Of a DNA stretch of 37,897 nucleotides, positions 19,492-27,473 are shown piece after piece. The stretch is from a virus (taxonomy: Duplodnaviria > Caudoviricetes): IMG/VR virus record IMGVR_UViG_3300033562_001313, positions 1 to 37,897 of that record. One strand, given 5' to 3'. Position 1 is the stretch's first letter, and the number at the start of each line of letters is the position of its first letter. The notes beneath the pieces were generated by a model, which was given only the letters and a program-made list of their open reading frames with translations, was not told the DNA's origin and made no database searches. The translations under genes were made by a program, and so were the position numbers.

Positions 19492-19670
19492 TATTTCCCC
19501 TGGTTTGAAAGTTGTTCAAAGCCGCTTTTATCCAGTTTATGCCCGAGGCCGACCAGGGCCAGAGCGGCAACGATCTGTTGCAGTCCGCCGATGGTGTCCC
19601 CGCCAAGGATCGTCATGATGCCAAGCCCTGCAGTGCAGAGTGCCGCAACCCATGTTTTCCAACCTTTCAT
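19491..19670 (-). CDS. Putative holin (59 aa, not in ORF track)
   Basis: MKGWKTWVAALCTAGLGIMTILGGDTIGGLQQIVAALALVGLGHKLDKSGFEQLSNQGK; two hydrophobic segments; coupled to endolysin stop; AGGAG RBS. Confidence 0.7.
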   Translation of the reverse strand: MKGWKTWVAALCTAGLGIMTILGGDTIGGLQQIVAALALVGLGHKLDKSGFEQLSNQGK

Positions 19671-20221
19671 TGGATGATCTCCTTTGTCTGTTTAATATCC
19701 TGCGGGACAGAATTCCTTTCTGTCCCCAGCTGACTAAAGAGCCGTTCAACCCTGCTGACATAGTTGATTGTTTCGTCGGCATGTCTTCCGGTGATATTCG
19801 GCAGGGAGGAGGCGATTGCCGACCAATGGTCTGCCGCCAGGCCGGACCGGCCGGCCAGATCCTGGGCCTCAAGGATATTGCCGACCCCGGCGTTATAGCT
19901 GCCGAGCATAAAGCGGACCCGCTCAAGGCCGGTCTCTTTCTTCCAGACTTCCCAGCATTGCCGGTCATAGGCGATACCAAGACGGATATTGACGTGCGGC
20001 ACCTGCGGGGTGAAATTGACGCCGACCTTTCTCGCCATCTCCGCCCCGGTACCGGGCATAAGCTGCATGACGCCAAGGGCTCCGGCGGGAGAAACCGCCA
20101 GCGGATCGAGGCCCGACTCGGCTATTGCCTGGGCCTTAAACCACTGCCAGGGCAGGATCTGATAAAAGAATTCCAGCCCGTAGATCTGGAAGTAATGGTC
20201 GTAATGATGGGAGTGTTGCAT
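19667..20221 (-). CDS. Endolysin, lytic transglycosylase (SLT)
   Basis: AESGLDPLAVSPAGALGVMQLMPGT and SYNAG motifs; GGAGG RBS before MQHSHH. Confidence 0.92.
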   Translation of the reverse strand: MQHSHHYDHYFQIYGLEFFYQILPWQWFKAQAIAESGLDPLAVSPAGALGVMQLMPGTGAEMARKVGVNFTPQVPHVNIRLGIAYDRQCWEVWKKETGLERVRFMLGSYNAGVGNILEAQDLAGRSGLAADHWSAIASSLPNITGRHADETINYVSRVERLFSQLGTERNSVPQDIKQTKEIIQ

Positions 20222-20295
20222 GTCGCCTCCATAAACACCATGCCGAACCGGCCGCGTCGATTGCTCGACTCGGCCGTACTGTGTCAATAATGGCT

Positions 20296-20338
20296 TTTAT
20301 AAAGGACTGGAGAAAGGAAGGGTAGTTGAAGCAGTTCA
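20296..20338 (-). promoter_or_regulatory. Activator (Mor/C)-dependent late promoter, lysis/morphogenesis operon
   Basis: Dyad TGAACTGCTTCA, 25 nt, then TATAAA; no canonical -35. Confidence 0.6.
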
Positions 20339-20349
20339 GTTATTGCGGG

Positions 20350-20703
20350 TCATGGTGGGGTCAGGAGGATATTAACCTTCAGCCCATTAATCTTAATACG
20401 TCGCGGCGCCACCCATGAAAACCAATAGGGCGGCGATGACTCCGAGTCAGTGGCATCGGTGTAATGTGCTGCCAGGGTGTACATGGCACCGCTGGGCGTG
20501 TCGGAGAGCGTACACTCAAAGGTATAATCTGCTTCAACTGGTATCGTGCAGGCAAGCGTTCCGTTGCGATAAAGGAGGTAGCTCTCAACAGTTTTGTCAG
20601 CGGGTGGCGTGAACTCAAAGTCCACCTCGATTGTTTTATCTGCGGCCAGACCAACGACAGGCAGCATCAATAAAACCAGCAATGCTGTGATTACGCTACG
20701 CAT
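20350..20703 (-). CDS. Secreted fibronectin-III/Ig-like small protein
   Basis: Signal peptide MRSVITALLVLLMLPVVGLA|A; SYLLYRNG...YTLAAHY..ATDSESSPP Fn3-like pattern. Confidence 0.65.
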   Translation of the reverse strand: MRSVITALLVLLMLPVVGLAADKTIEVDFEFTPPADKTVESYLLYRNGTLACTIPVEADYTFECTLSDTPSGAMYTLAAHYTDATDSESSPPYWFSWVAPRRIKINGLKVNILLTPP

Positions 20704-21793
20704 ACCCCTCCTCATTATAGATAGCCTGCAATTCCGCCGATGGGTGGCACCAGCCGGAATAGTCTATCAGGTTAAACGCCTCTTCAGAATTTTCGCCATC
20801 TTCGGAAAACATGGATATGGCCGGCAGACAATCTTTTACCCCGGTACTCAGCACGGTTTTAGCAATCTGGAACACCCACGACCTTAGACCGTGAAATGAT
20901 TTCAGCATACCCCGGCGTAGGTAGAGAAAGATTCGCACCATTGATTCCTGGACAGCATCCTCGACATCGACGTAATAAGGGACGTGGAAGCGGTCAAGCC
21001 GCGAGCGGAGAAAGGTGGAAAGGATTTTTTTTTGCTCTTCCAGCCAATCACCTATGGCATTGATATCGCCATGCCAGAATTTGAGGAAACAATCTGCCAT
21101 TGGGTGATCGCTGTTTTCCGCCATTGCAATGGCCTTTTCCAGCATATAGGATCTACCGTACCATGCCAGGTTATCGGCTCGGCAATTGCTACGGTCGCCG
21201 TCGATAAATACCTCGTTGAAGTCGCCATCGGGGTTTGGATGGAAGGCACGGAGAACCTCCATGTGGACAACAATCCGATTGCCGCCCTTATTTTTAACGG
21301 TCATTGATGGCTGTTTGGCATTTTTATTGGCCGTCTCAAAAACTGGAGTCATCAGCCTTTCGTCGCGTTTACGGATTGATTTTACCCTGCCCATATTGGA
21401 GATGAGCAAACCAAGGCAATCCTCACGGCCAATAGCTTTCCACTCTTCACCGGGCAGATCCGGCACCCGCTTAATGTCAATGGTTCCGGCAGTACGAATC
21501 CGGCTCCAGTGTTTTTTACACAAGCCTTGCCCATAGTGTGGCTTGTTACAGCCATTAATGGAGCAGCGGATGACGGTCTGATCACTCTCTCGCTTTGCCT
21601 TGTGCGCCAACTCATAGCAACTGCGGCACAACCCCTTGGCATAGTGCGGCTTGTGGCAGTAACGACATTTCTTTTCCGGCTTTTTATAGAGGGGGTCGCC
21701 GTGCTGCTGGCGGATATGCTCATGCAGGCGACAGAGGCCGTTTGCCACTTGTGGTTTATCACAGCCGATAATGGTACATTCCATCTGACTCAT
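20696..21793 (-). CDS. Zn-finger/NUMOD4/degenerate HNH protein fused to a sigma70 region-2-like domain
   Basis: Three C-x-x(xx)-C...GLC repeats; EEWKAIG..ISNMGRVKS; EVFIDGDRSNCRADNLAW; DVEDAVQESMVRIF...LRSWVFQIAKT. Confidence 0.65.
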   Translation of the reverse strand: MSQMECTIIGCDKPQVANGLCRLHEHIRQQHGDPLYKKPEKKCRYCHKPHYAKGLCRSCYELAHKAKRESDQTVIRCSINGCNKPHYGQGLCKKHWSRIRTAGTIDIKRVPDLPGEEWKAIGREDCLGLLISNMGRVKSIRKRDERLMTPVFETANKNAKQPSMTVKNKGGNRIVVHMEVLRAFHPNPDGDFNEVFIDGDRSNCRADNLAWYGRSYMLEKAIAMAENSDHPMADCFLKFWHGDINAIGDWLEEQKKILSTFLRSRLDRFHVPYYVDVEDAVQESMVRIFLYLRRGMLKSFHGLRSWVFQIAKTVLSTGVKDCLPAISMFSEDGENSEEAFNLIDYSGWCHPSAELQAIYNEEGYA

Positions 21794-22866
21794 GGCGCTG
21801 TCCTCACGTGGAACGTGTTGCCTACCTTGACGATCTTACCATCCCTCATTTTTCCCATCATTCGCCCGGTCGGCTCGGTTATGCCGGTCTCCAGGGTACC
21901 CGTGGTAAATGTCCACTGTACGCCGCTGCCGTCCGGATCTTCAACAACTGGGGCAATAACCATGCCGCCGGCCATATTCTCAGCAACATAGGTTGCTGTT
22001 ATCTTCAGGACATCGGGGTTGCTTTGGGCGGCTAGGGTGTAAGAGCCGTTATAGCCGGTCGTTCCGGTGATAGTCACCGCCTCACCGCCCTCATAGGTAT
22101 GGGCCTGGCATGGCAGGCCGACGGTGCCGTCGCCGTTGTCAATGGCTGATGCCCCGGACAATATAATGGTTTCTGTGCCAAGAAATGTCTCGGCTACATA
22201 GGTGTGGGTAATAAAAAGCTCACCGGCAACAGAGGCAGACTGCGACGGCAGGGTGGTGGTGCCGTTATAGTTGGTCGTGCCGGAAATAATGATACTGTCG
22301 CCCTCCGTAAATAAATGGGTGACTTCGCCACTGGCTGGCAATGGTAACGGAAGGGCCACTATACCACTGCCCTTATCGACAGCTGCAGCAGCTCTGAGGG
22401 TTTTCTGTAAAGCAGGTTTAAAGCCATGTCCTTCCGGCCAAACTGGCTCAGTTGCCCCGGATGTCCCGGCCCTGGTTGCCGCCATCCACCAAAAGGCCAA
22501 TGGATAATCGCTGACGGATATTTTATCACCGAGTGAATAGGCGGTCAGTGGTTGCCAGGGCGCGGCGTAAGCGGTGGCTCTGCCGGTAATTCTGGCAGTC
22601 GCTACCGTCGCCAGGTCTACGGAGGTGTTGAGCTGCCGGTCACTCGGCTTATCCCAGACCTCGGCAATAACCACATCGCGGTTCAGAATCTGTACCCCTA
22701 TGCGGTGCTTTAACGAGCCTGATCCGAAACCTTCAACAACATAGGAAGAGTCGTTGCCGCTCGACAGCCAGTCGGTGTTACCCTCCCAGGCTACGGTCAG
22801 GCTGTCTATTGCCCCGGCCAGGGTCGGCATACAAACCAGGAGGATAGCAAAAAATAATCTCTGCAT
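21790..22866 (-). CDS. Secreted beta-repeat protein with phage tail-like modules
   Basis: Signal peptide MQRLFFAILLVCMPTLAGA; AGTSGATEPVWP motif; two H..EG..I.I.GTT.YNG.(T/Y)TL repeats. Confidence 0.65.
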   Translation of the reverse strand: MQRLFFAILLVCMPTLAGAIDSLTVAWEGNTDWLSSGNDSSYVVEGFGSGSLKHRIGVQILNRDVVIAEVWDKPSDRQLNTSVDLATVATARITGRATAYAAPWQPLTAYSLGDKISVSDYPLAFWWMAATRAGTSGATEPVWPEGHGFKPALQKTLRAAAAVDKGSGIVALPLPLPASGEVTHLFTEGDSIIISGTTNYNGTTTLPSQSASVAGELFITHTYVAETFLGTETIILSGASAIDNGDGTVGLPCQAHTYEGGEAVTITGTTGYNGSYTLAAQSNPDVLKITATYVAENMAGGMVIAPVVEDPDGSGVQWTFTTGTLETGITEPTGRMMGKMRDGKIVKVGNTFHVRTAP

Positions 22867-22875
22867 GGTATCTCC

Positions 22876-24717
22876 TTACCAGGTGGCGAGCGCGGCCCGG
22901 AGCCAGGTGTTAGTGGCAACACAAACATACCAGTAACTCGTATCAAACCACCACTGCCCGGCTGTGCAGGCGGTCGTTGCTGTTGCCGGTACTACCCCTG
23001 TCGGAAGGGTTATGGTGACGTTTGCGGCCAAAACTGCCGGTGCTTTTAAAATAACCTCATTGGTGCCATTGGCCGGATCTTCTTTTAAACCGATTTCCCC
23101 TGTCTCGCCTGTCGGTGGTGGTGCGACAATAATGTCGTCCACAGACAGTGTCGTAAACTCACCAGTGGAGGGGGTAGTGCTGCCGATAGGGCCAGGTGCC
23201 GTCAGATCGACGGCGCTTGCCTCATCACGCACTTCCTGAATGGCGGCTTGGACAGTAGTCGCGGCAATTGTGCCGTTTGGAGTAAAGGCAACACCCCCGG
23301 CATTCTGATCTCCGGTGTTGGTGCCGGATAAATTACCGAGCTTTACCTTTTCGGCATCGGTTGCATAGTTATCATCGGTGCCAAGGGCAGCAGCAGCGCC
23401 AAGAGTAGCCCTCGCAGTTGCCGCATCGGTATCGTCAAGCACCGTTAGCATATAGGTAGAGGCATTGATATCGACGGCATTATCATTGGCGGTCAGTGCT
23501 GCCTGCACCGCAGAAACAAGTGATGTGCCGGTGTAGGTTGCGCCGCTCAAGGCCGGTACGGTAATCGTTCCGGTAAAGGTTGGGCTGGCGGTTGGTGCGG
23601 CTTCATCCCGCACTTCCTGAATGGCTGCTTGGACAGTGGTCGCGGCAATCGTACCGTTTGGGGTAAAGGAAACTTCTCCGGCTGTTTGATCGTCTGGGGA
23701 TGCAGGGAGATTAGTAAGCAGCGCCCCGGAAACGGCTGGTAATTGCGCCGAGGCGTTGAGCTGCACATAGTTATTCGCACTGGTGCCGATATTGCTTTCA
23801 AGCATATAGCCGATATGTGGGTCGGTTAAGCCTGCATGGGTAGATACAGCAGAACTCACCTCGGTATCCCTGGCAATTGTCGAGGCGATTTGAGCGTCGG
23901 GTACTGTACCAGTTGTTATATTTGTGCCGCTTATACCTGTACCAACTTTAGACCCAGTCAAGGAGCCATCGGCCAGATCAGTCAGATCCGCGTCAAAGGC
24001 CTGGACGTTTGTGCCAACAACAAGGCCGAGGCTTGTCGGAGTTTGATCGCCGGTGTTGGTGCCGCTGGTGTTTGCCAGCCTGGTACTCGATGTTGCGTCA
24101 AAACTGATTTTTGCCGTATTGGCAGCTATTGCATCCTGAGTAGCCGTAGATAAGCCAAGAGTCGCTGAGCCGGCAGAAGCCCCACCTGTTAAGCCAGTAC
24201 CGGCAACCACATCAGTAATATCACCTGTGCCTGCTGCCCCTATTTCATCATCACCGACAACTAAATTCCCCGATGAGTCGAATTTTAATACCTTGCCGGA
24301 GGCCTTGCCTGTGGTATCAACGTCGGTAAGGTCGTTTATCGCCGTCGCCCCGCCGGAAGCCACCAGGCCGGACAAATCAACCGTTGCGGTGTTGCCGCCA
24401 GACAGTGTCAATGTCAGCACGTTGGTTGTGCTGTTCAGGGAAAAATTCGATACCGTTTGGCTGTCGGTATTGACCAGCGAGGCAACGTTTACCGCTATGG
24501 TGGCACCACTGGCCATAAGCAGTGTCATGGTGTTGCCTGTCACCGATCCGGAGATAACTTTATGGCCATAAAGTTCGGTAAAGTTTGAGTTAAGTTTTGC
24601 TTTCTCTCCACCCCACAAAACGCCGGTGCCGCTGGAGATTGTTTGCTGTGCGGCAAAGCTTGCCGTTGTTGCGGCGAATAAAATGGCAGCTGCTAATAAC
24701 AGTTTTGTTTTAATCAT
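22876..24717 (-). CDS. Secreted fibre/adhesin-like protein (613 aa)
   Basis: Signal peptide MIKTKLLLAAAILFAATTASFA|A; tail-fibre motifs; C-terminal GQWWFDTSYWYVCVATNTWLRAALATW. Confidence 0.7.
   Translation of the reverse strand: MIKTKLLLAAAILFAATTASFAAQQTISSGTGVLWGGEKAKLNSNFTELYGHKVISGSVTGNTMTLLMASGATIAVNVASLVNTDSQTVSNFSLNSTTNVLTLTLSGGNTATVDLSGLVASGGATAINDLTDVDTTGKASGKVLKFDSSGNLVVGDDEIGAAGTGDITDVVAGTGLTGGASAGSATLGLSTATQDAIAANTAKISFDATSSTRLANTSGTNTGDQTPTSLGLVVGTNVQAFDADLTDLADGSLTGSKVGTGISGTNITTGTVPDAQIASTIARDTEVSSAVSTHAGLTDPHIGYMLESNIGTSANNYVQLNASAQLPAVSGALLTNLPASPDDQTAGEVSFTPNGTIAATTVQAAIQEVRDEAAPTASPTFTGTITVPALSGATYTGTSLVSAVQAALTANDNAVDINASTYMLTVLDDTDAATARATLGAAAALGTDDNYATDAEKVKLGNLSGTNTGDQNAGGVAFTPNGTIAATTVQAAIQEVRDEASAVDLTAPGPIGSTTPSTGEFTTLSVDDIIVAPPPTGETGEIGLKEDPANGTNEVILKAPAVLAANVTITLPTGVVPATATTACTAGQWWFDTSYWYVCVATNTWLRAALATW
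23221..23669. repeat. Intragenic duplication (FTPNGTIAATTVQAAIQEVRDEA x2)
   Basis: Near-identical ~68-bp copies at 23221-23288 and 23601-23669, differing mostly at synonymous sites. Confidence 0.85.
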
Positions 24718-24899
24718 GATAACTCCAAGGCATCGAGCATTTCTAAGCCGTCGAGCATTTCAGTAGTGGTTGGATCGACGGGCAAGCCCGACTCGTTGAG
24801 GTTGCTCGCGTTACCCCAGCCATGCAGCACGGAAAAAAGCTGCTCGATCTGCCTTATCGCCTGGGCCTGCAAGTTTATCCCGCCATTGAGATCAACCAT
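24714..24899 (-). CDS. Small acidic hypothetical protein
   Basis: Coupled ORF in the cassette. Confidence 0.55.
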   Translation of the reverse strand: MVDLNGGINLQAQAIRQIEQLFSVLHGWGNASNLNESGLPVDPTTTEMLDGLEMLDALELS

Positions 24900-24900
24900 A

Positions 24901-25257
24901 TTACGCCCCCCCGCGAATGTGCATGGAAAATGCCGCCATATCAGCGCCGCCGGTATTGGTGACGGTAACCTGTACAGCTGGGCAGAGCAGGCTGGAGTAA
25001 AGGAAAAAAGCCGGCGTTCCGGCGGTGACTGACCCGATATCGGACACCGCGCCGGGAGTCTCGCCGTCCGGCAGGCGGGTGACGGTTACTGTGCAGTCCT
25101 GATCGGCAGCGATATCAATGCCGAGGGTTTTACACATCCTGGTATTTATGTGGGATGATGCCCGCGAGGCGGCGGCCTCAAGCGGGGCCGTATCGACCAG
25201 CAACAGAGTGCTGCCTGTGCCTATGTGCCCCGTGGGCACGCCTATTTTATCGTCCAT
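24901..25257 (-). CDS. Small beta-sandwich-like hypothetical protein
   Basis: AGGAG RBS; first gene after late promoter. Confidence 0.7.
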   Translation of the reverse strand: MDDKIGVPTGHIGTGSTLLLVDTAPLEAAASRASSHINTRMCKTLGIDIAADQDCTVTVTRLPDGETPGAVSDIGSVTAGTPAFFLYSSLLCPAVQVTVTNTGGADMAAFSMHIRGGA

Positions 25258-25286: not shown

Positions 25287-25327
25287 AATAAGGGGCTACC
25301 ACCAAATGCTGGTGATAGCCCCTTATT
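25287..25327 (-). terminator. 18-bp hairpin terminating the antirepressor operon and overlapping the late promoter -10
   Basis: AATAAGGGGCTATCACCA-GCATT-TGGTGGTAGCCCCTTATT then CTTT. Confidence 0.6.
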
Positions 25328-25354
25328 GAAATAAAGATTATAGGAAGTGGTTCA
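25312..25354 (-). promoter_or_regulatory. Second Mor/C-dependent late promoter, driving the secreted-protein cassette
   Basis: TGAACCACTTCC, 25 nt, TATCAC: same geometry as the promoter at 20296-20338. Confidence 0.55.
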
Positions 25355-25367
25355 GTGCTTATGCCGG

Positions 25368-26564: not shown

Positions 26565-26890
26565 GGTTTTCTCCTACGTTTGATTTGTACTGAGCTCAGA
26601 TCTGAGGCCAGTGATTCCCACCCTCTATGCGACCAAACAAAAAAAGGGCGGATCGAACGGGTTGGTCGACCGGCAGTAGGCACCGGCGAGCCTTGCGGCT
26701 CCCCGTTCGACCCGCCCAAAGGAGCAAATCGAACTTTCGGACATTTACGCCAATGAATTTCAGGCATAAAAAAACCGCCTGAAGAAAGCATTGGCGGCTG
26801 TCCGCCTACATAACGCCGGGCGACCAAACCCGTACAGCCGTTTTTTTCGGCTGCACGGGTTTGGTCGCCCGGAGTTATGTGCTTTGTCAA
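26561..26890 (-). CDS. Ash/Icd-family-like ORF overlapping the C4 RNA region (translation and start uncertain)
   Basis: GGFFMP and GEPQGSP..AGRPTR pattern typical of ORFs read across C4 elements. Confidence 0.35.
   Translation of the reverse strand: MTKHITPGDQTRAAEKNGCTGLVARRYVGGQPPMLSSGGFFMPEIHWRKCPKVRFAPLGGSNGEPQGSPVPTAGRPTRSIRPFFVWSHRGWESLASDLSSVQIKRRRKP
26646..26717 (-). ncRNA. C4 antisense RNA (P1/P7 immI / P4 CI type)
   Basis: Cloverleaf GGGCGGGTCGAACGGGGAGCCGCAAGGCTCGCCGG...CCGGTCGACCAACCCGTTCGATCCGCCC with a GCAA tetraloop; its CGACCAA is complementary to TTGGTCG targets at ~26821-26827 and ~26630-26636. Confidence 0.85.
26768..26798 (-). terminator. C4-controlled terminator
   Basis: GCCGCC...GGCGGT followed by a T run, between upstream target and C4 RNA. 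Confidence 0.6.
26808..26880. repeat. 33-bp inverted repeat over the C4 promoter and upstream target
   Basis: Arms 26808-26840 and 26848-26880 match 31/33, with a T7 loop. Confidence 0.9.
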
Positions 26891-26898
26891 TGAAAAGT

Positions 26899-26929
26899 TA
26901 AAGGGTCGCGTTTCAAACGCGACCCTTTA
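26899..26929 (-). terminator. Perfect palindrome/terminator downstream of mor and the DRR peptide gene
   Basis: TAAAGGGTCGCGTTT-C-AAACGCGACCCTTTA. Confidence 0.65.
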
Positions 26930-27156
26930 AAACAACTTTAACTGCCGATTATTCTCTACCCCCTCCGCTCCCCACTCCGCCGATCGCCAACCCGCCGATC
27001 AGCGCAGCGCCGATCGCCCTGCCGCCTGTTTTGGCCGGTACGAAGATCTATTTGGCCCCGGCCGTTTTGCCAGCGGCCGGCAACAAAAAAACTGATATCC
27101 ATATCATTGGTTCGTTCGCTCATTGTCGAAATCTCCTTTAAAACAACTTTAACTGC
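26924..27156. repeat. 22-bp direct repeat duplicating the 3' end of mor
   Basis: CCTTTAAAACAACTTTAACTGC at 26924-26945 and 27135-27156. Confidence 0.9.
26956..27123 (-). CDS. 55-aa Arg-rich (D/E)RR-repeat peptide (not in ORF track)
   Basis: MSERTNDMDISFFVAGRWQNGRGQIDLRTGQNRRQGDRRCADRRVGDRRSGERRG*; AAGGAG RBS. Confidence 0.7.
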   Translation of the reverse strand: MSERTNDMDISFFVAGRWQNGRGQIDLRTGQNRRQGDRRCADRRVGDRRSGERRG

Positions 27157-27473
27157 TTATCTTCACCCGGCTCCCGACCGAGAATATTCCATATATGCCG
27201 TGAACTCATGCCGACGGAACGGGCGATATCATCGACCCTTTCGCCGCTGTTATAACGCTCGATAATGCGCTTGTCGCGGACCTTGCGGCGTAGGTTGTCG
27301 ACATTATGGAAGTAGACGCTTGTGCCGCGAAAGGCTGACTCCAGGGCCAGGGCCAGCCGCACGCCCATTCCCGGCACCACCGACTCCAGCGCCCTGGCAA
27401 GGGATGCTAGTTCGCCCGGCAGCTCGTCTATGGTCGGCAGGAATTCATCGGGCAGTTTGGTCAGATCGTCCAT
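27138..27473 (-). CDS. Mor/C-family transcription activator
   Basis: ALESAFRGTSVYF, RDKRIIERYNSGE, C-terminal HTH. Confidence 0.88.
   Translation of the reverse strand: MDDLTKLPDEFLPTIDELPGELASLARALESVVPGMGVRLALALESAFRGTSVYFHNVDNLRRKVRDKRIIERYNSGERVDDIARSVGMSSRHIWNILGREPGEDKQLKLF

What the first reader, a model, noticed from the sequence alone, without database searches (positions are those of the whole stretch)
20696..21793. Apparently dead HNH homing endonuclease fused to a sigma-factor region 2
Seen: three Cys/His Zn-finger repeats, a NUMOD4-like segment, and an HNH-like motif reading EVFIDGDRSNCRADNLAW. A C-terminal helical part reads DVEDAVQESMVRIF...LRSWVFQIAKT. Known: active NUMOD4-HNH enzymes read V(N/D)HIDG.K.NN...NLEW, so the catalytic His is here Phe. 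ECF sigma region 2 reads DAEDxxQExF...F.xWLxxIARN. No sigma region-4 HTH is evident. Inference: a homing endonuclease was domesticated so that its DNA-recognition modules replace sigma-4 and direct RNA polymerase via sigma-2, or act as an RNAP decoy. It sits just upstream of the lysis operon.
Basis: partly seen in the sequence, partly recalled or inferred. Interest (0 to 1): 0.85.

Follow-up and report, generated by a model that had tools for sequence, protein, structure and literature searches.

The report
Sigma factor built on dead nuclease
A phage protein family joins a DNA-cutting enzyme fold that has lost its catalytic residues to the polymerase-binding half of a bacterial sigma factor, and likely uses the dead nuclease to place RNA polymerase at chosen promoters, a design not found in the databases or papers searched.

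Summary
ORF 20696-21793 (minus strand, 365 aa) lies in a near-complete Mu-like phage. It has three Cys/His fingers, an I-HmuI-like NUMOD4-HNH domain (Z 13.0), an ECF-type sigma-2 (profile E 7e-8 to SigW; Z about 10), a sigma-3.2-like acidic linker, and no sigma-4. It belongs to a family of 74 aligned proteins. His75 survives in 3 of 74 and metal-binding Asn96 in 1 of 74, against 79 and 73 of 81 ordinary HNH controls; none keeps both. Both halves are under purifying selection (dN/dS 0-0.19). A model docks the sigma-2.2 helix on the host beta-prime clamp helices (0.64, controls 0.00), which may only reflect likeness to solved complexes. The gene is accessory. It rides in a module of signal-peptide, FN3-like genes across unrelated phage backbones. 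A related prophage lacks the module but keeps the same Mor/C-type promoter before the lysin, so this is not the lysis or late sigma. Best reading (0.55): a DNA-tethered minimal sigma factor. Main rival (0.25): a polymerase decoy or roadblock. No target promoter, DNA binding or transcription was shown.

The parts
20696..21793 (-). Whole gene: Zn fingers - NUMOD4 - dead HNH - sigma-2 - sigma-3.2-like linker (365 aa, P0001)
21509..21778 (-). Three Cys/His finger repeats (residues 6-24, 43-59, 77-95); 0-3 copies per family member by pattern
   Evidence: PHROG HNH-family matches; zinc binding inferred
21332..21460 (-). NUMOD4 motif (residues 112-154)
   Evidence: Pfam E 0.001; 65 of 74 members at E<=0.1
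21155..21280 (-). HNH (beta-beta-alpha-metal) fold with V195/F196/C204 at I-HmuI D74/H75/N83; M217 (N96 position) lies in the next helix
   Evidence: I-HmuI Z 13.0, rmsd 2.2, 88 aligned over 116-213
21113..21154 (-). Predicted helix (214-227) joining the dead HNH directly to sigma-2
   Evidence: model
20816..21112 (-). ECF-type sigma-2 domain (228-326); region 2.2 D279/Q282/E283, W306
20699..20815 (-). Sigma-3.2-like linker: acidic middle and a tail helix; the protein ends where sigma-4 would begin
   Evidence: alignments to M. tuberculosis SigH and AlgU; net negative at 327-345 in 71 of 74
21790..22866 (-). Upstream module gene (358 aa): signal-peptide-like start, all-beta model; stop overlaps the start of this gene
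20350..20715 (-). Downstream module gene (121 aa): signal-peptide-like start, FN3-like
   Evidence: (E 0.005 to 2w1n_A)
22876..25257 (-). Further module genes (118, 61, 613 aa), absent at this site in relative G300
25312..25356 (-). Late-promoter-like copy before the module (16-bp dyad, 23 nt, TAT element)
   Evidence: geometry matches Mu C promoters (PMC2582627)
20296..20340 (-). Second copy of that promoter-like element, before the SLT lysin (19667-20287)
27138..27473 (-). Mor/C-family late activator, the likely reader of those two promoter copies (context)
   Evidence: PHROG E 7e-13

Best explanation
This is likely a single-chain, DNA-tethered minimal sigma factor: its Zn fingers and catalytically dead NUMOD4-HNH domain would bind a specific site, and its sigma-2 is predicted to bind the beta-prime clamp helices of host core RNA polymerase and would open the -10 region. 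The acidic linker would enter the active cleft as ECF linkers do. Shown: architecture, loss of catalytic residues, sigma-2 homology, absence of sigma-4, purifying selection, and linkage to a portable module. Predicted: core binding. Inferred: DNA binding, promoter melting, and target. The most likely target (weakly inferred) is a promoter serving its own module of secreted-type genes, which would let the module work in unrelated phage backbones. It is not the general late or lysis activator.
For: Catalytic loss: H75 in 3/74, N96 in 1/74, D/N74 in 0/74, N83 in 0/74, against 79, 73, 75 and 77 of 81 parsed ordinary NUMOD4-HNH ORFs (97 distinct, 16 not parsed). dN/dS in the 4 of 16 pairs with low synonymous divergence was 0.04-0.19 for the dead HNH and 0-0.14 for sigma-2. 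Sigma-2: SigW E 7.2e-8, AlgU 2.3e-6, SigH 3.2e-6; ShbA Z 10.2 (rmsd 8.5, 111 aligned) and SigW Z 9.9 (rmsd 3.9, 93 aligned). Core-binding positions: D279 D/E 56/74, Q282 Q 56/74, E283 E/D 49/74. Complex model: 0.64 against best control 0.00; the mark was reached by 116 of 157 solved and 2 of 215 mismatched pairs; runs agree in at least 45% of contacts, partner pLDDT at least 63; the interface is residues 244-255 and 274-290; a pass here can come from likeness to solved sigma-core complexes. DNA-side features a pure decoy would not need: W306 (sigmaE W73) aromatic in 74/74, L297 (F64) hydrophobic in at least 70/74, linker acidic in 71/74. PMC6648896 (passages): F64, W73 and N80 aid open-complex formation; the linker is essential for transcription, while its own contacts add little to core affinity; linker deletion weakens core binding about 20-fold. 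A sigma-4-less form would thus be a poor competitor and would need a DNA tether (inference). The N-terminal modules vary (0-3 fingers; tandem dead HNH in P0044, P0045, P0092), as expected of a specificity module.
Against: No DNA binding, holoenzyme or transcript was measured. No target motif emerged from 16 family-bearing sequence sets. The N80-equivalent is Asn in only 28/74 and Thr in P0001. W306 and I310 may be kept for folding alone. The dead HNH region of P0001 has net charge only +1, though it is positive in 59/74 members and the fingers carry +13. The relative placement of domains is uncertain (pTM 0.59). The gene sits inside a late operon behind a Mor/C-type promoter, overlapping its neighbours, which is unusual for an activator and leaves its own module with another promoter in Mu-like phages. 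The PSAE tail is gapped in about 32 of 74 members, and its last codons overlap the next gene's ribosome-binding site. No genomic context was obtained for the 30-member distant clade.
Confidence: 0.55

Rival explanations
1. Decoy or roadblock: the protein binds DNA and grips the beta-prime clamp helices to block sigma-70 (or NusG) at chosen sites, or sequesters core late in infection, without starting transcripts.
For: Core-binding residues are conserved and the interface is predicted. There is no sigma-4. Late-operon placement fits a shut-down role. The N80 position is variable.
Against: It keeps W306, the F64-type hydrophobic residue and an acidic sigma-3.2-like linker, which serve initiation rather than core affinity. 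A sigma-4-less sigma-2 should compete poorly with sigma-70 (inference from PMC6648896).
Confidence: 0.25
2. A -10-only sigma like T4 gp55, with the dead HNH kept as a scaffold or non-specific DNA clamp rather than as the specificity module (as proposed for the LAGLIDADG domain of WhiA).
For: gp55 initiates basal transcription with a sigma-2 homology domain alone (PMC7892883). WhiA's nuclease fold may have given up DNA binding (PMC3384342). The dead HNH of P0001 has a low net charge.
Against: The NUMOD4 motif is kept in 65/74. Variable finger arrays and tandem dead HNHs point to sequence reading.
Confidence: 0.12
3. Dedicated late or lysis sigma factor of the phage (implied by the first reader).
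For: An endolysin follows within about 3 kb in the window, L002, L003, L006, L007, L020, L049, L050 and L053.
Against: The phage encodes a Mor/C activator. Relative G300 has the same promoter directly before its lysin with no module. 0 of 12 other Mor-downstream regions carry the gene. Terminase is the next gene in L005 and the second in L004.
Confidence: 0.04
4. Still an active, mobile homing endonuclease with altered chemistry (for example a Tyr base, as in PacI).
For: Tyr at the His position in 13/74 and His in 3/74. PacI uses Tyr (PMC3384342). The distribution is patchy (3 of 401 genomes).
Against: 56/74 have Phe, and no member with His or Tyr also keeps Asn96. No site lacking only this gene was seen: all 7 upstream-gene loci with flanking DNA carry it (the query was built from linked copies).
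Confidence: 0.03
5. A decaying chance fusion or an assembly artefact.
For: Single-sequence Pfam scores are below cut-off.
Against: 74 aligned members share the architecture, many at 21-35% identity. dN/dS is far below 1. A second viral contig encodes the identical protein.
Confidence: 0.01

Closest known systems
I-HmuI-type NUMOD4-HNH homing endonucleases
   Same: Fold of residues 116-213 (Z 13.0, rmsd 2.2); NUMOD4 motif; Cys/His fingers shared with phage HNH families.
   Different: D74, H75, N83 and N96 positions are lost; the C-terminal DNA-binding part is replaced by sigma-2; it moves as part of a multi-gene module.
ECF (group 4) sigma-70 factors (SigW, AlgU/RpoE, SigH, ShbA)
   Same: Sigma-2 sequence and fold, region-2.2 core-binding residues, W73-equivalent, sigma-2/4 linker with tail helix.
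   Different: No sigma-4 in 74 of 74; a 110-220-aa nuclease-derived N-terminal part; no anti-sigma recognised nearby. The ECF survey PMC7826278 has no occurrence of 'HNH' or 'nuclease' in its main text.
T4 gp55 (with gp33 and gp45)
   Same: Phage sigma-2-only factor that binds the clamp helices with no -35 reader (PMC7892883).
   Different: gp55 uses separate co-activators and the sliding clamp and is the essential late sigma. Only a fold-level match here (Z 7.5, 4% identity). This family carries its upstream DNA module in the same chain and is accessory.
dCas12f-sigmaE RNA-guided transcription
   Same: A nuclease-dead protein supplants -35 recognition and positions sigma-RNAP (PMC12259091 abstract).
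   Different: That system is two proteins plus a guide RNA with a separate ECF sigma. This is one chain, presumably protein-guided, from a homing endonuclease.
WhiA/DUF199 and SMAD MH1
   Same: Homing-endonuclease folds that lost catalysis and became regulators (PMC3384342).
   Different: They come from LAGLIDADG or His-Cys box folds, and neither is described there as fused to a sigma domain.

Membership tests
I-HmuI-type HNH homing endonuclease | NUMOD4 plus beta-beta-alpha-metal fold | tested here: met
I-HmuI-type HNH homing endonuclease | General-base His (H75) | tested here: not met
   Phe196; His in 3/74 against 79/81 controls
I-HmuI-type HNH homing endonuclease | Metal-binding Asn at the helix start (N96 by my count on the alignment) and D/N before the His | tested here: not met
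   Met217 and Val195; 1/74 and 0/74 against 73/81 and 75/81. The role of D74 is recalled.
I-HmuI-type HNH homing endonuclease | Moves alone into empty alleles | tested here: inconclusive
   Only absence of the whole module was seen
I-HmuI-type HNH homing endonuclease | DNA nicking or cleavage | not testable with these tools
   needs an assay
ECF (group 4) sigma factor | Sigma-2 domain | tested here: met
   Sigma70_r2 in 40/74 at E<=0.1
ECF (group 4) sigma factor | Sigma-4 domain | tested here: not met
   No sigma-4 family hit in 74; 96 of 98 stored proteins with this sigma-2 end within 56 residues of it; no separate sigma-4 over cut-off in 4 and 5 phage records
ECF (group 4) sigma factor | Sigma-3.2-like linker after sigma-2 | tested here: met
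   alignment to SigH and AlgU linkers, helix-coil-helix model, acidic in 71/74; cleft entry itself untested
ECF (group 4) sigma factor | Binds core RNAP clamp helices | tested here: inconclusive
   Model supports it, 0.64 against 0.00; may be likeness to solved complexes
ECF (group 4) sigma factor | -10 melting residues (sigmaE F64, W73, N80) | tested here: inconclusive
   W aromatic 74/74, F64 position hydrophobic, N80 position Asn 28/74
ECF (group 4) sigma factor | Directs promoter-specific initiation | not testable with these tools
   needs in vitro transcription
T4 gp55-type sigma | Sigma-2 without sigma-4 | tested here: met
T4 gp55-type sigma | Essential late sigma working with gp33 and a sliding clamp | tested here: not met
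   Accessory; absent from related Mu-like prophage regions; no gp33 among window genes scanned
dCas12f-sigmaE system | Cas12f-derived protein with guide RNA, separate from the sigma | tested here: not met
   The dead nuclease is HNH and is fused in one chain; an associated RNA was not searched for

The most novel reading that the evidence does not exclude
A new class of sigma factor: one polypeptide in which a domesticated homing endonuclease, with swappable finger and tandem-HNH modules, reads a long upstream DNA site and an attached sigma-2 plus finger starts transcription without any -35 element or sigma-4. It would give a portable phage gene module its own orthogonal transcription and be a natural scaffold for protein-programmed sigma factors.
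Probability: 0.45. Interest if true: 0.88.

Novelty: new variant of a known kind. Interest (0 to 1): 0.74.

Why it matters
Sigma factors are defined by sigma-2 plus sigma-4. The known exceptions (T4 gp55, dCas12f-sigmaE) borrow upstream recognition from separate partners. A family that fuses a dead homing endonuclease to sigma-2 would be a third, single-chain solution and a new route from selfish nuclease to transcription machinery. It allows a direct test of whether any DNA-binding domain placed N-terminal to sigma-2 can replace the -35 contact. Even as a decoy it would be an undescribed phage RNA polymerase regulator. The family falls below Pfam and NCBIfam cut-offs, so annotation pipelines call it hypothetical.

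Tried and rejected
Single-sequence PDB search found nothing useful. INPHARED phages: 4 records matched, none over more than 42% of the query. ESM Atlas listed unnamed viral clusters at 0.91-0.93 with few shared features, which I could not inspect, so they are a lead only. Context for the distant clade failed: two single-protein scans found nothing, and two alignment scans returned only ordinary HNH genes (no sigma-2 hit in those 99 loci), which I then used as controls. A search for shorter relatives of the sigma part found 2 likely fragments and no sigma-4-bearing parent; longer fused forms (over 847 aa) were not searched. Separate sigma-4 partner: only weak HTH hits below cut-off. Gapped 8-mer search of intergenic DNA in 16 sets against 80 controls gave only ribosome-binding and GC-bias words. 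I first suspected that the dyad-plus-TAT elements bracketing the module were targets because they lack a -7 T, and rejected this because G300 has the element without the gene. The sigma-70 promoter scan was at chance level (5 against 7.0). Sequencing runs: no RNA holder listed. The fold of the upstream module protein gave best Z 8.0 with no family assigned. Earlier scan findings: none in 3 look-ups. Literature searches for the architecture listed no paper describing it; most listed papers were seen as listings only.

Full report
SETTING. The window is a whole virus record (37,897 bases, 99% complete by CheckV). It has a Mu-like layout: repressor, transposase A and B, Mor/C activator, anti-repressor, SLT endolysin, terminase, portal and head genes. 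The ORF at 20696-21793 is intact on the minus strand. Close relatives lie in genomes titled Desulfocapsaceae, Desulfobulbaceae and Desulfobulbus, plus one titled Moraniibacteriota. A Desulfobulbales host for this phage is inferred.

ANATOMY. The model (28-row alignment, mean pLDDT 85, pTM 0.59) shows three small finger units, a beta-rich NUMOD4-HNH domain, a helix at 214-227, a helical domain at 233-325, a low-confidence loop and a last helix at 353-364. The best structural match is I-HmuI (Z 13.0, rmsd 2.2, 88 aligned, 116-213). Ranks 2-24 are all sigma factors or sigma-containing complexes over about 228-330 (ShbA Z 10.2, SigW 9.9, sigmaE region 2 9.1); the first non-sigma chain scores 6.4. 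These Z values are modest for a helical domain, but sequence agrees: the 74-member profile hits I-HmuI (2.3e-14), SigW (7.2e-8), AlgU (2.3e-6) and M. tuberculosis SigH (3.2e-6), and the AlgU and SigH alignments run through the sigma-2/4 linker to the point where sigma-4 starts.

FAMILY. The word-index search gave 28 full or near-full relatives including the query. I picked 46 more from the best 150 profile hits because their match extended into the sigma part; the other hits were mostly finger or HNH repeats. Pfam sees NUMOD4 in 65, HNH_3 in 49, Sigma70_r2 in 40 and sigma-4 in 0 of 74 at E<=0.1. The tree splits a 44-member and a 30-member group (support 97/98). N-terminal parts vary: 0-3 fingers by pattern (21, 30, 14, 9 members; some are contig-cut), tandem dead HNHs in P0044, P0045 and P0092, and in P0104 and P0107 a segment that looks AP2-like by eye (recalled; no Pfam hit).

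DEAD NUCLEASE. Numbering the I-HmuI chain printed puts D74, H75, N83 and N96 on V195, F196, C204 and M217. PMC3384342 (passages) names H75 as the base and an Asn at the helix start as metal ligand, and notes that PacI uses Tyr; the role of D74 is recalled. In the family the H75 column is F 56, Y 13, H 3, S 1, A 1; D/N74 0/74; N83 0/74; N96 1/74; His or Tyr together with N96 0/74. In ordinary NUMOD4-HNH ORFs from 99 control loci, 81 of 97 distinct ORFs could be parsed: H 79, D/N 75, N83 77, N96 73. The structural NLxW is kept (N208 in 74/74). Of 16 gene pairs, 4 had pS under 0.5 in all regions; their dN/dS was 0.16, 0.19, 0.08, 0.04 for NUMOD4-HNH and 0.06, 0.14, 0.00, 0.03 for sigma-2; the rest were near saturation with pN at or below 0.32 in these two regions. 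The fold is being kept without its chemistry.

SIGMA FUNCTION. Region-2.2 positions are conserved (D279, Q282, E283). Folded with the beta-prime clamp region from a Desulfobulbaceae genome that carries a family member, residues 214-365 scored 0.64 against a best control of 0.00; the mark was reached by 116 of 157 solved and 2 of 215 mismatched pairs, counts that hold only roughly with my own alignments; runs agreed in at least 45% of contacts and partner pLDDT was at least 63. The contacts (244-255 and 274-290 on the coiled coil) are the textbook ones (recalled; PMC7892883 passages describe the same site for gp55), so the pass shows likeness, not binding. On the DNA side, the AlgU alignment maps L297, W306 and T313 to sigmaE F64, W73 and N80 (one-residue offset inferred). 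W306 is aromatic in 74/74, L297 hydrophobic in at least 70/74, but N80 is Asn in only 28/74. Residues 327-345 are net negative in 71/74. PMC6648896 (passages) reports that the ECF linker enters the active cleft, is essential for transcription, and that its deletion cuts core affinity about 20-fold by untying sigma-2 from sigma-4. I infer that a sigma-4-less protein that keeps the linker is built to initiate and needs a DNA tether. Because the HNH is N-terminal to sigma-2, it cannot simply sit where sigma-4 does; its position on DNA is unknown.

CONTEXT. The gene overlaps or abuts its neighbours. An FN3-like gene with a signal-peptide-like start lies within one gene of it in 19 of 24 loci (13 of these were used to build the profile; the other 5 loci are cut on at least one side). 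A 360-aa gene family of similar type precedes it in many. Backbones differ: Mu-like, terminase-adjacent without Mu genes in view (L002-L005), and integrase-flanked (L020, L051). Signal peptides were judged by eye. An endolysin follows within about 3 kb in 9 loci, but not in L004 or L005. In the window the 4.9-kb module (25257-20350) is bracketed by two copies of a 16-bp dyad, 23 nt, TAT element. This matches Mu late promoters, where C binds a 16-bp dyad centred at -43.5 (PMC2582627, passages) and works with sigma-70 (PMC12867686, abstract and passages). G005 and G791 have their own element duplicated around the module. Relative G300 has Mor, anti-repressor, the same small gene, one copy of the element and then the lysin, with no module. 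In 401 Desulfobulbales genomes, 45 have a Mor/C-like match and 3 have this gene, 2 of them among the 45; 1 of 401 in a phylum-wide sample, the seed genome itself. Many are incomplete, so this means not found in those searched. The gene is accessory and is not the lysis switch.

MECHANISM AND RIVALS. Best (0.55): a DNA-tethered minimal sigma, most likely serving its own portable module. Rivals: decoy or roadblock (0.25), gp55-like -10-only sigma with a scaffold HNH (0.12), late or lysis sigma (0.04), active nuclease (0.03), artefact (0.01). The target is the weakest link; my motif search found none.

KNOWN KINDS. It works like gp55 and dCas12f-sigmaE (PMC12259091, abstract; PMC13472631, listing only) and parallels WhiA and SMAD domestication, but fails membership of ECF sigmas (no sigma-4) and of HNH homing endonucleases (no catalytic residues). 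SigI is another variant sigma (PMC10575876, abstract). A survey of sigma domains in about 350,000 phage proteomes reports sigma-2-only proteins but has no occurrence of HNH, NUMOD or nuclease in its main text (bioRxiv 10.64898/2026.10.08.757525; parts 1-2 of 3 read and whole text term-searched; supplement closed); it used Pfam trusted cut-offs, and P0001 scores 12.2 bits against a 24-bit gathering cut-off. The ECF reclassification notes that phage sigmas were missed and can carry alternative domains (PMC7826278, passages). Six searches of the held library listed no description of this fusion; subscription papers are not covered.

VERDICT. A real, conserved, apparently undescribed architecture under selection, with function inferred. 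New variant of a known kind; interest 0.74.

Noticed in passing
window 20350-25257; L002, L006, L007, L009, L010, L020, L049-L054: A portable phage module of genes with signal-peptide-like starts, all-beta or FN3-like bodies and basic C-terminal tails, shared by unrelated phage backbones; no Pfam family. Secreted proteins in a late phage operon are unexplained.
   Followed up: partly
window 25312-25356 and 20296-20340; G005 15638/21670; G791 11354/16540; L013 about 2395: Mor/C-type late promoter duplicated on both sides of the module; the predicted -10 hexamers mostly lack the usual T at -7, also in G300, which has no module.
   Followed up: partly
window 25292-25332: A perfect 18-bp inverted repeat overlaps the predicted -10 of the upstream promoter copy; terminator or operator.
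   Followed up: no
window 26808-26880: 33-nt arms, 94% complementary, 7-nt loop, at the start of the 109-aa ORF before the anti-repressor; a second hairpin at 26898-26930.
   Followed up: no
window 23219-23310 and 23600-23691: 92-nt direct repeat (85%) inside the 613-aa module gene, giving a repeated protein segment.
   Followed up: no
ESM Atlas rows 1-3 and 5: Unnamed viral clusters of 228-242 aa (50-180 members) resemble residues 105-365 by language-model features; possibly a larger family, possibly only NUMOD4-HNH likeness.
   Followed up: no
P0044, P0045, P0092, P0104, P0107: Members with tandem dead HNH domains or an AP2-looking N-terminal segment (by eye) before sigma-2.
   Followed up: partly
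L012 50-808: A close member at a contig edge in a genome titled Moraniibacteriota, followed by sugar-modification genes; possibly misbinned.
   Followed up: no
L034 and L041 (about 10001): Two control HNH ORFs also lack the His and Asn (Tyr or Phe at the base position) but show no sigma-2 hit.
   Followed up: no
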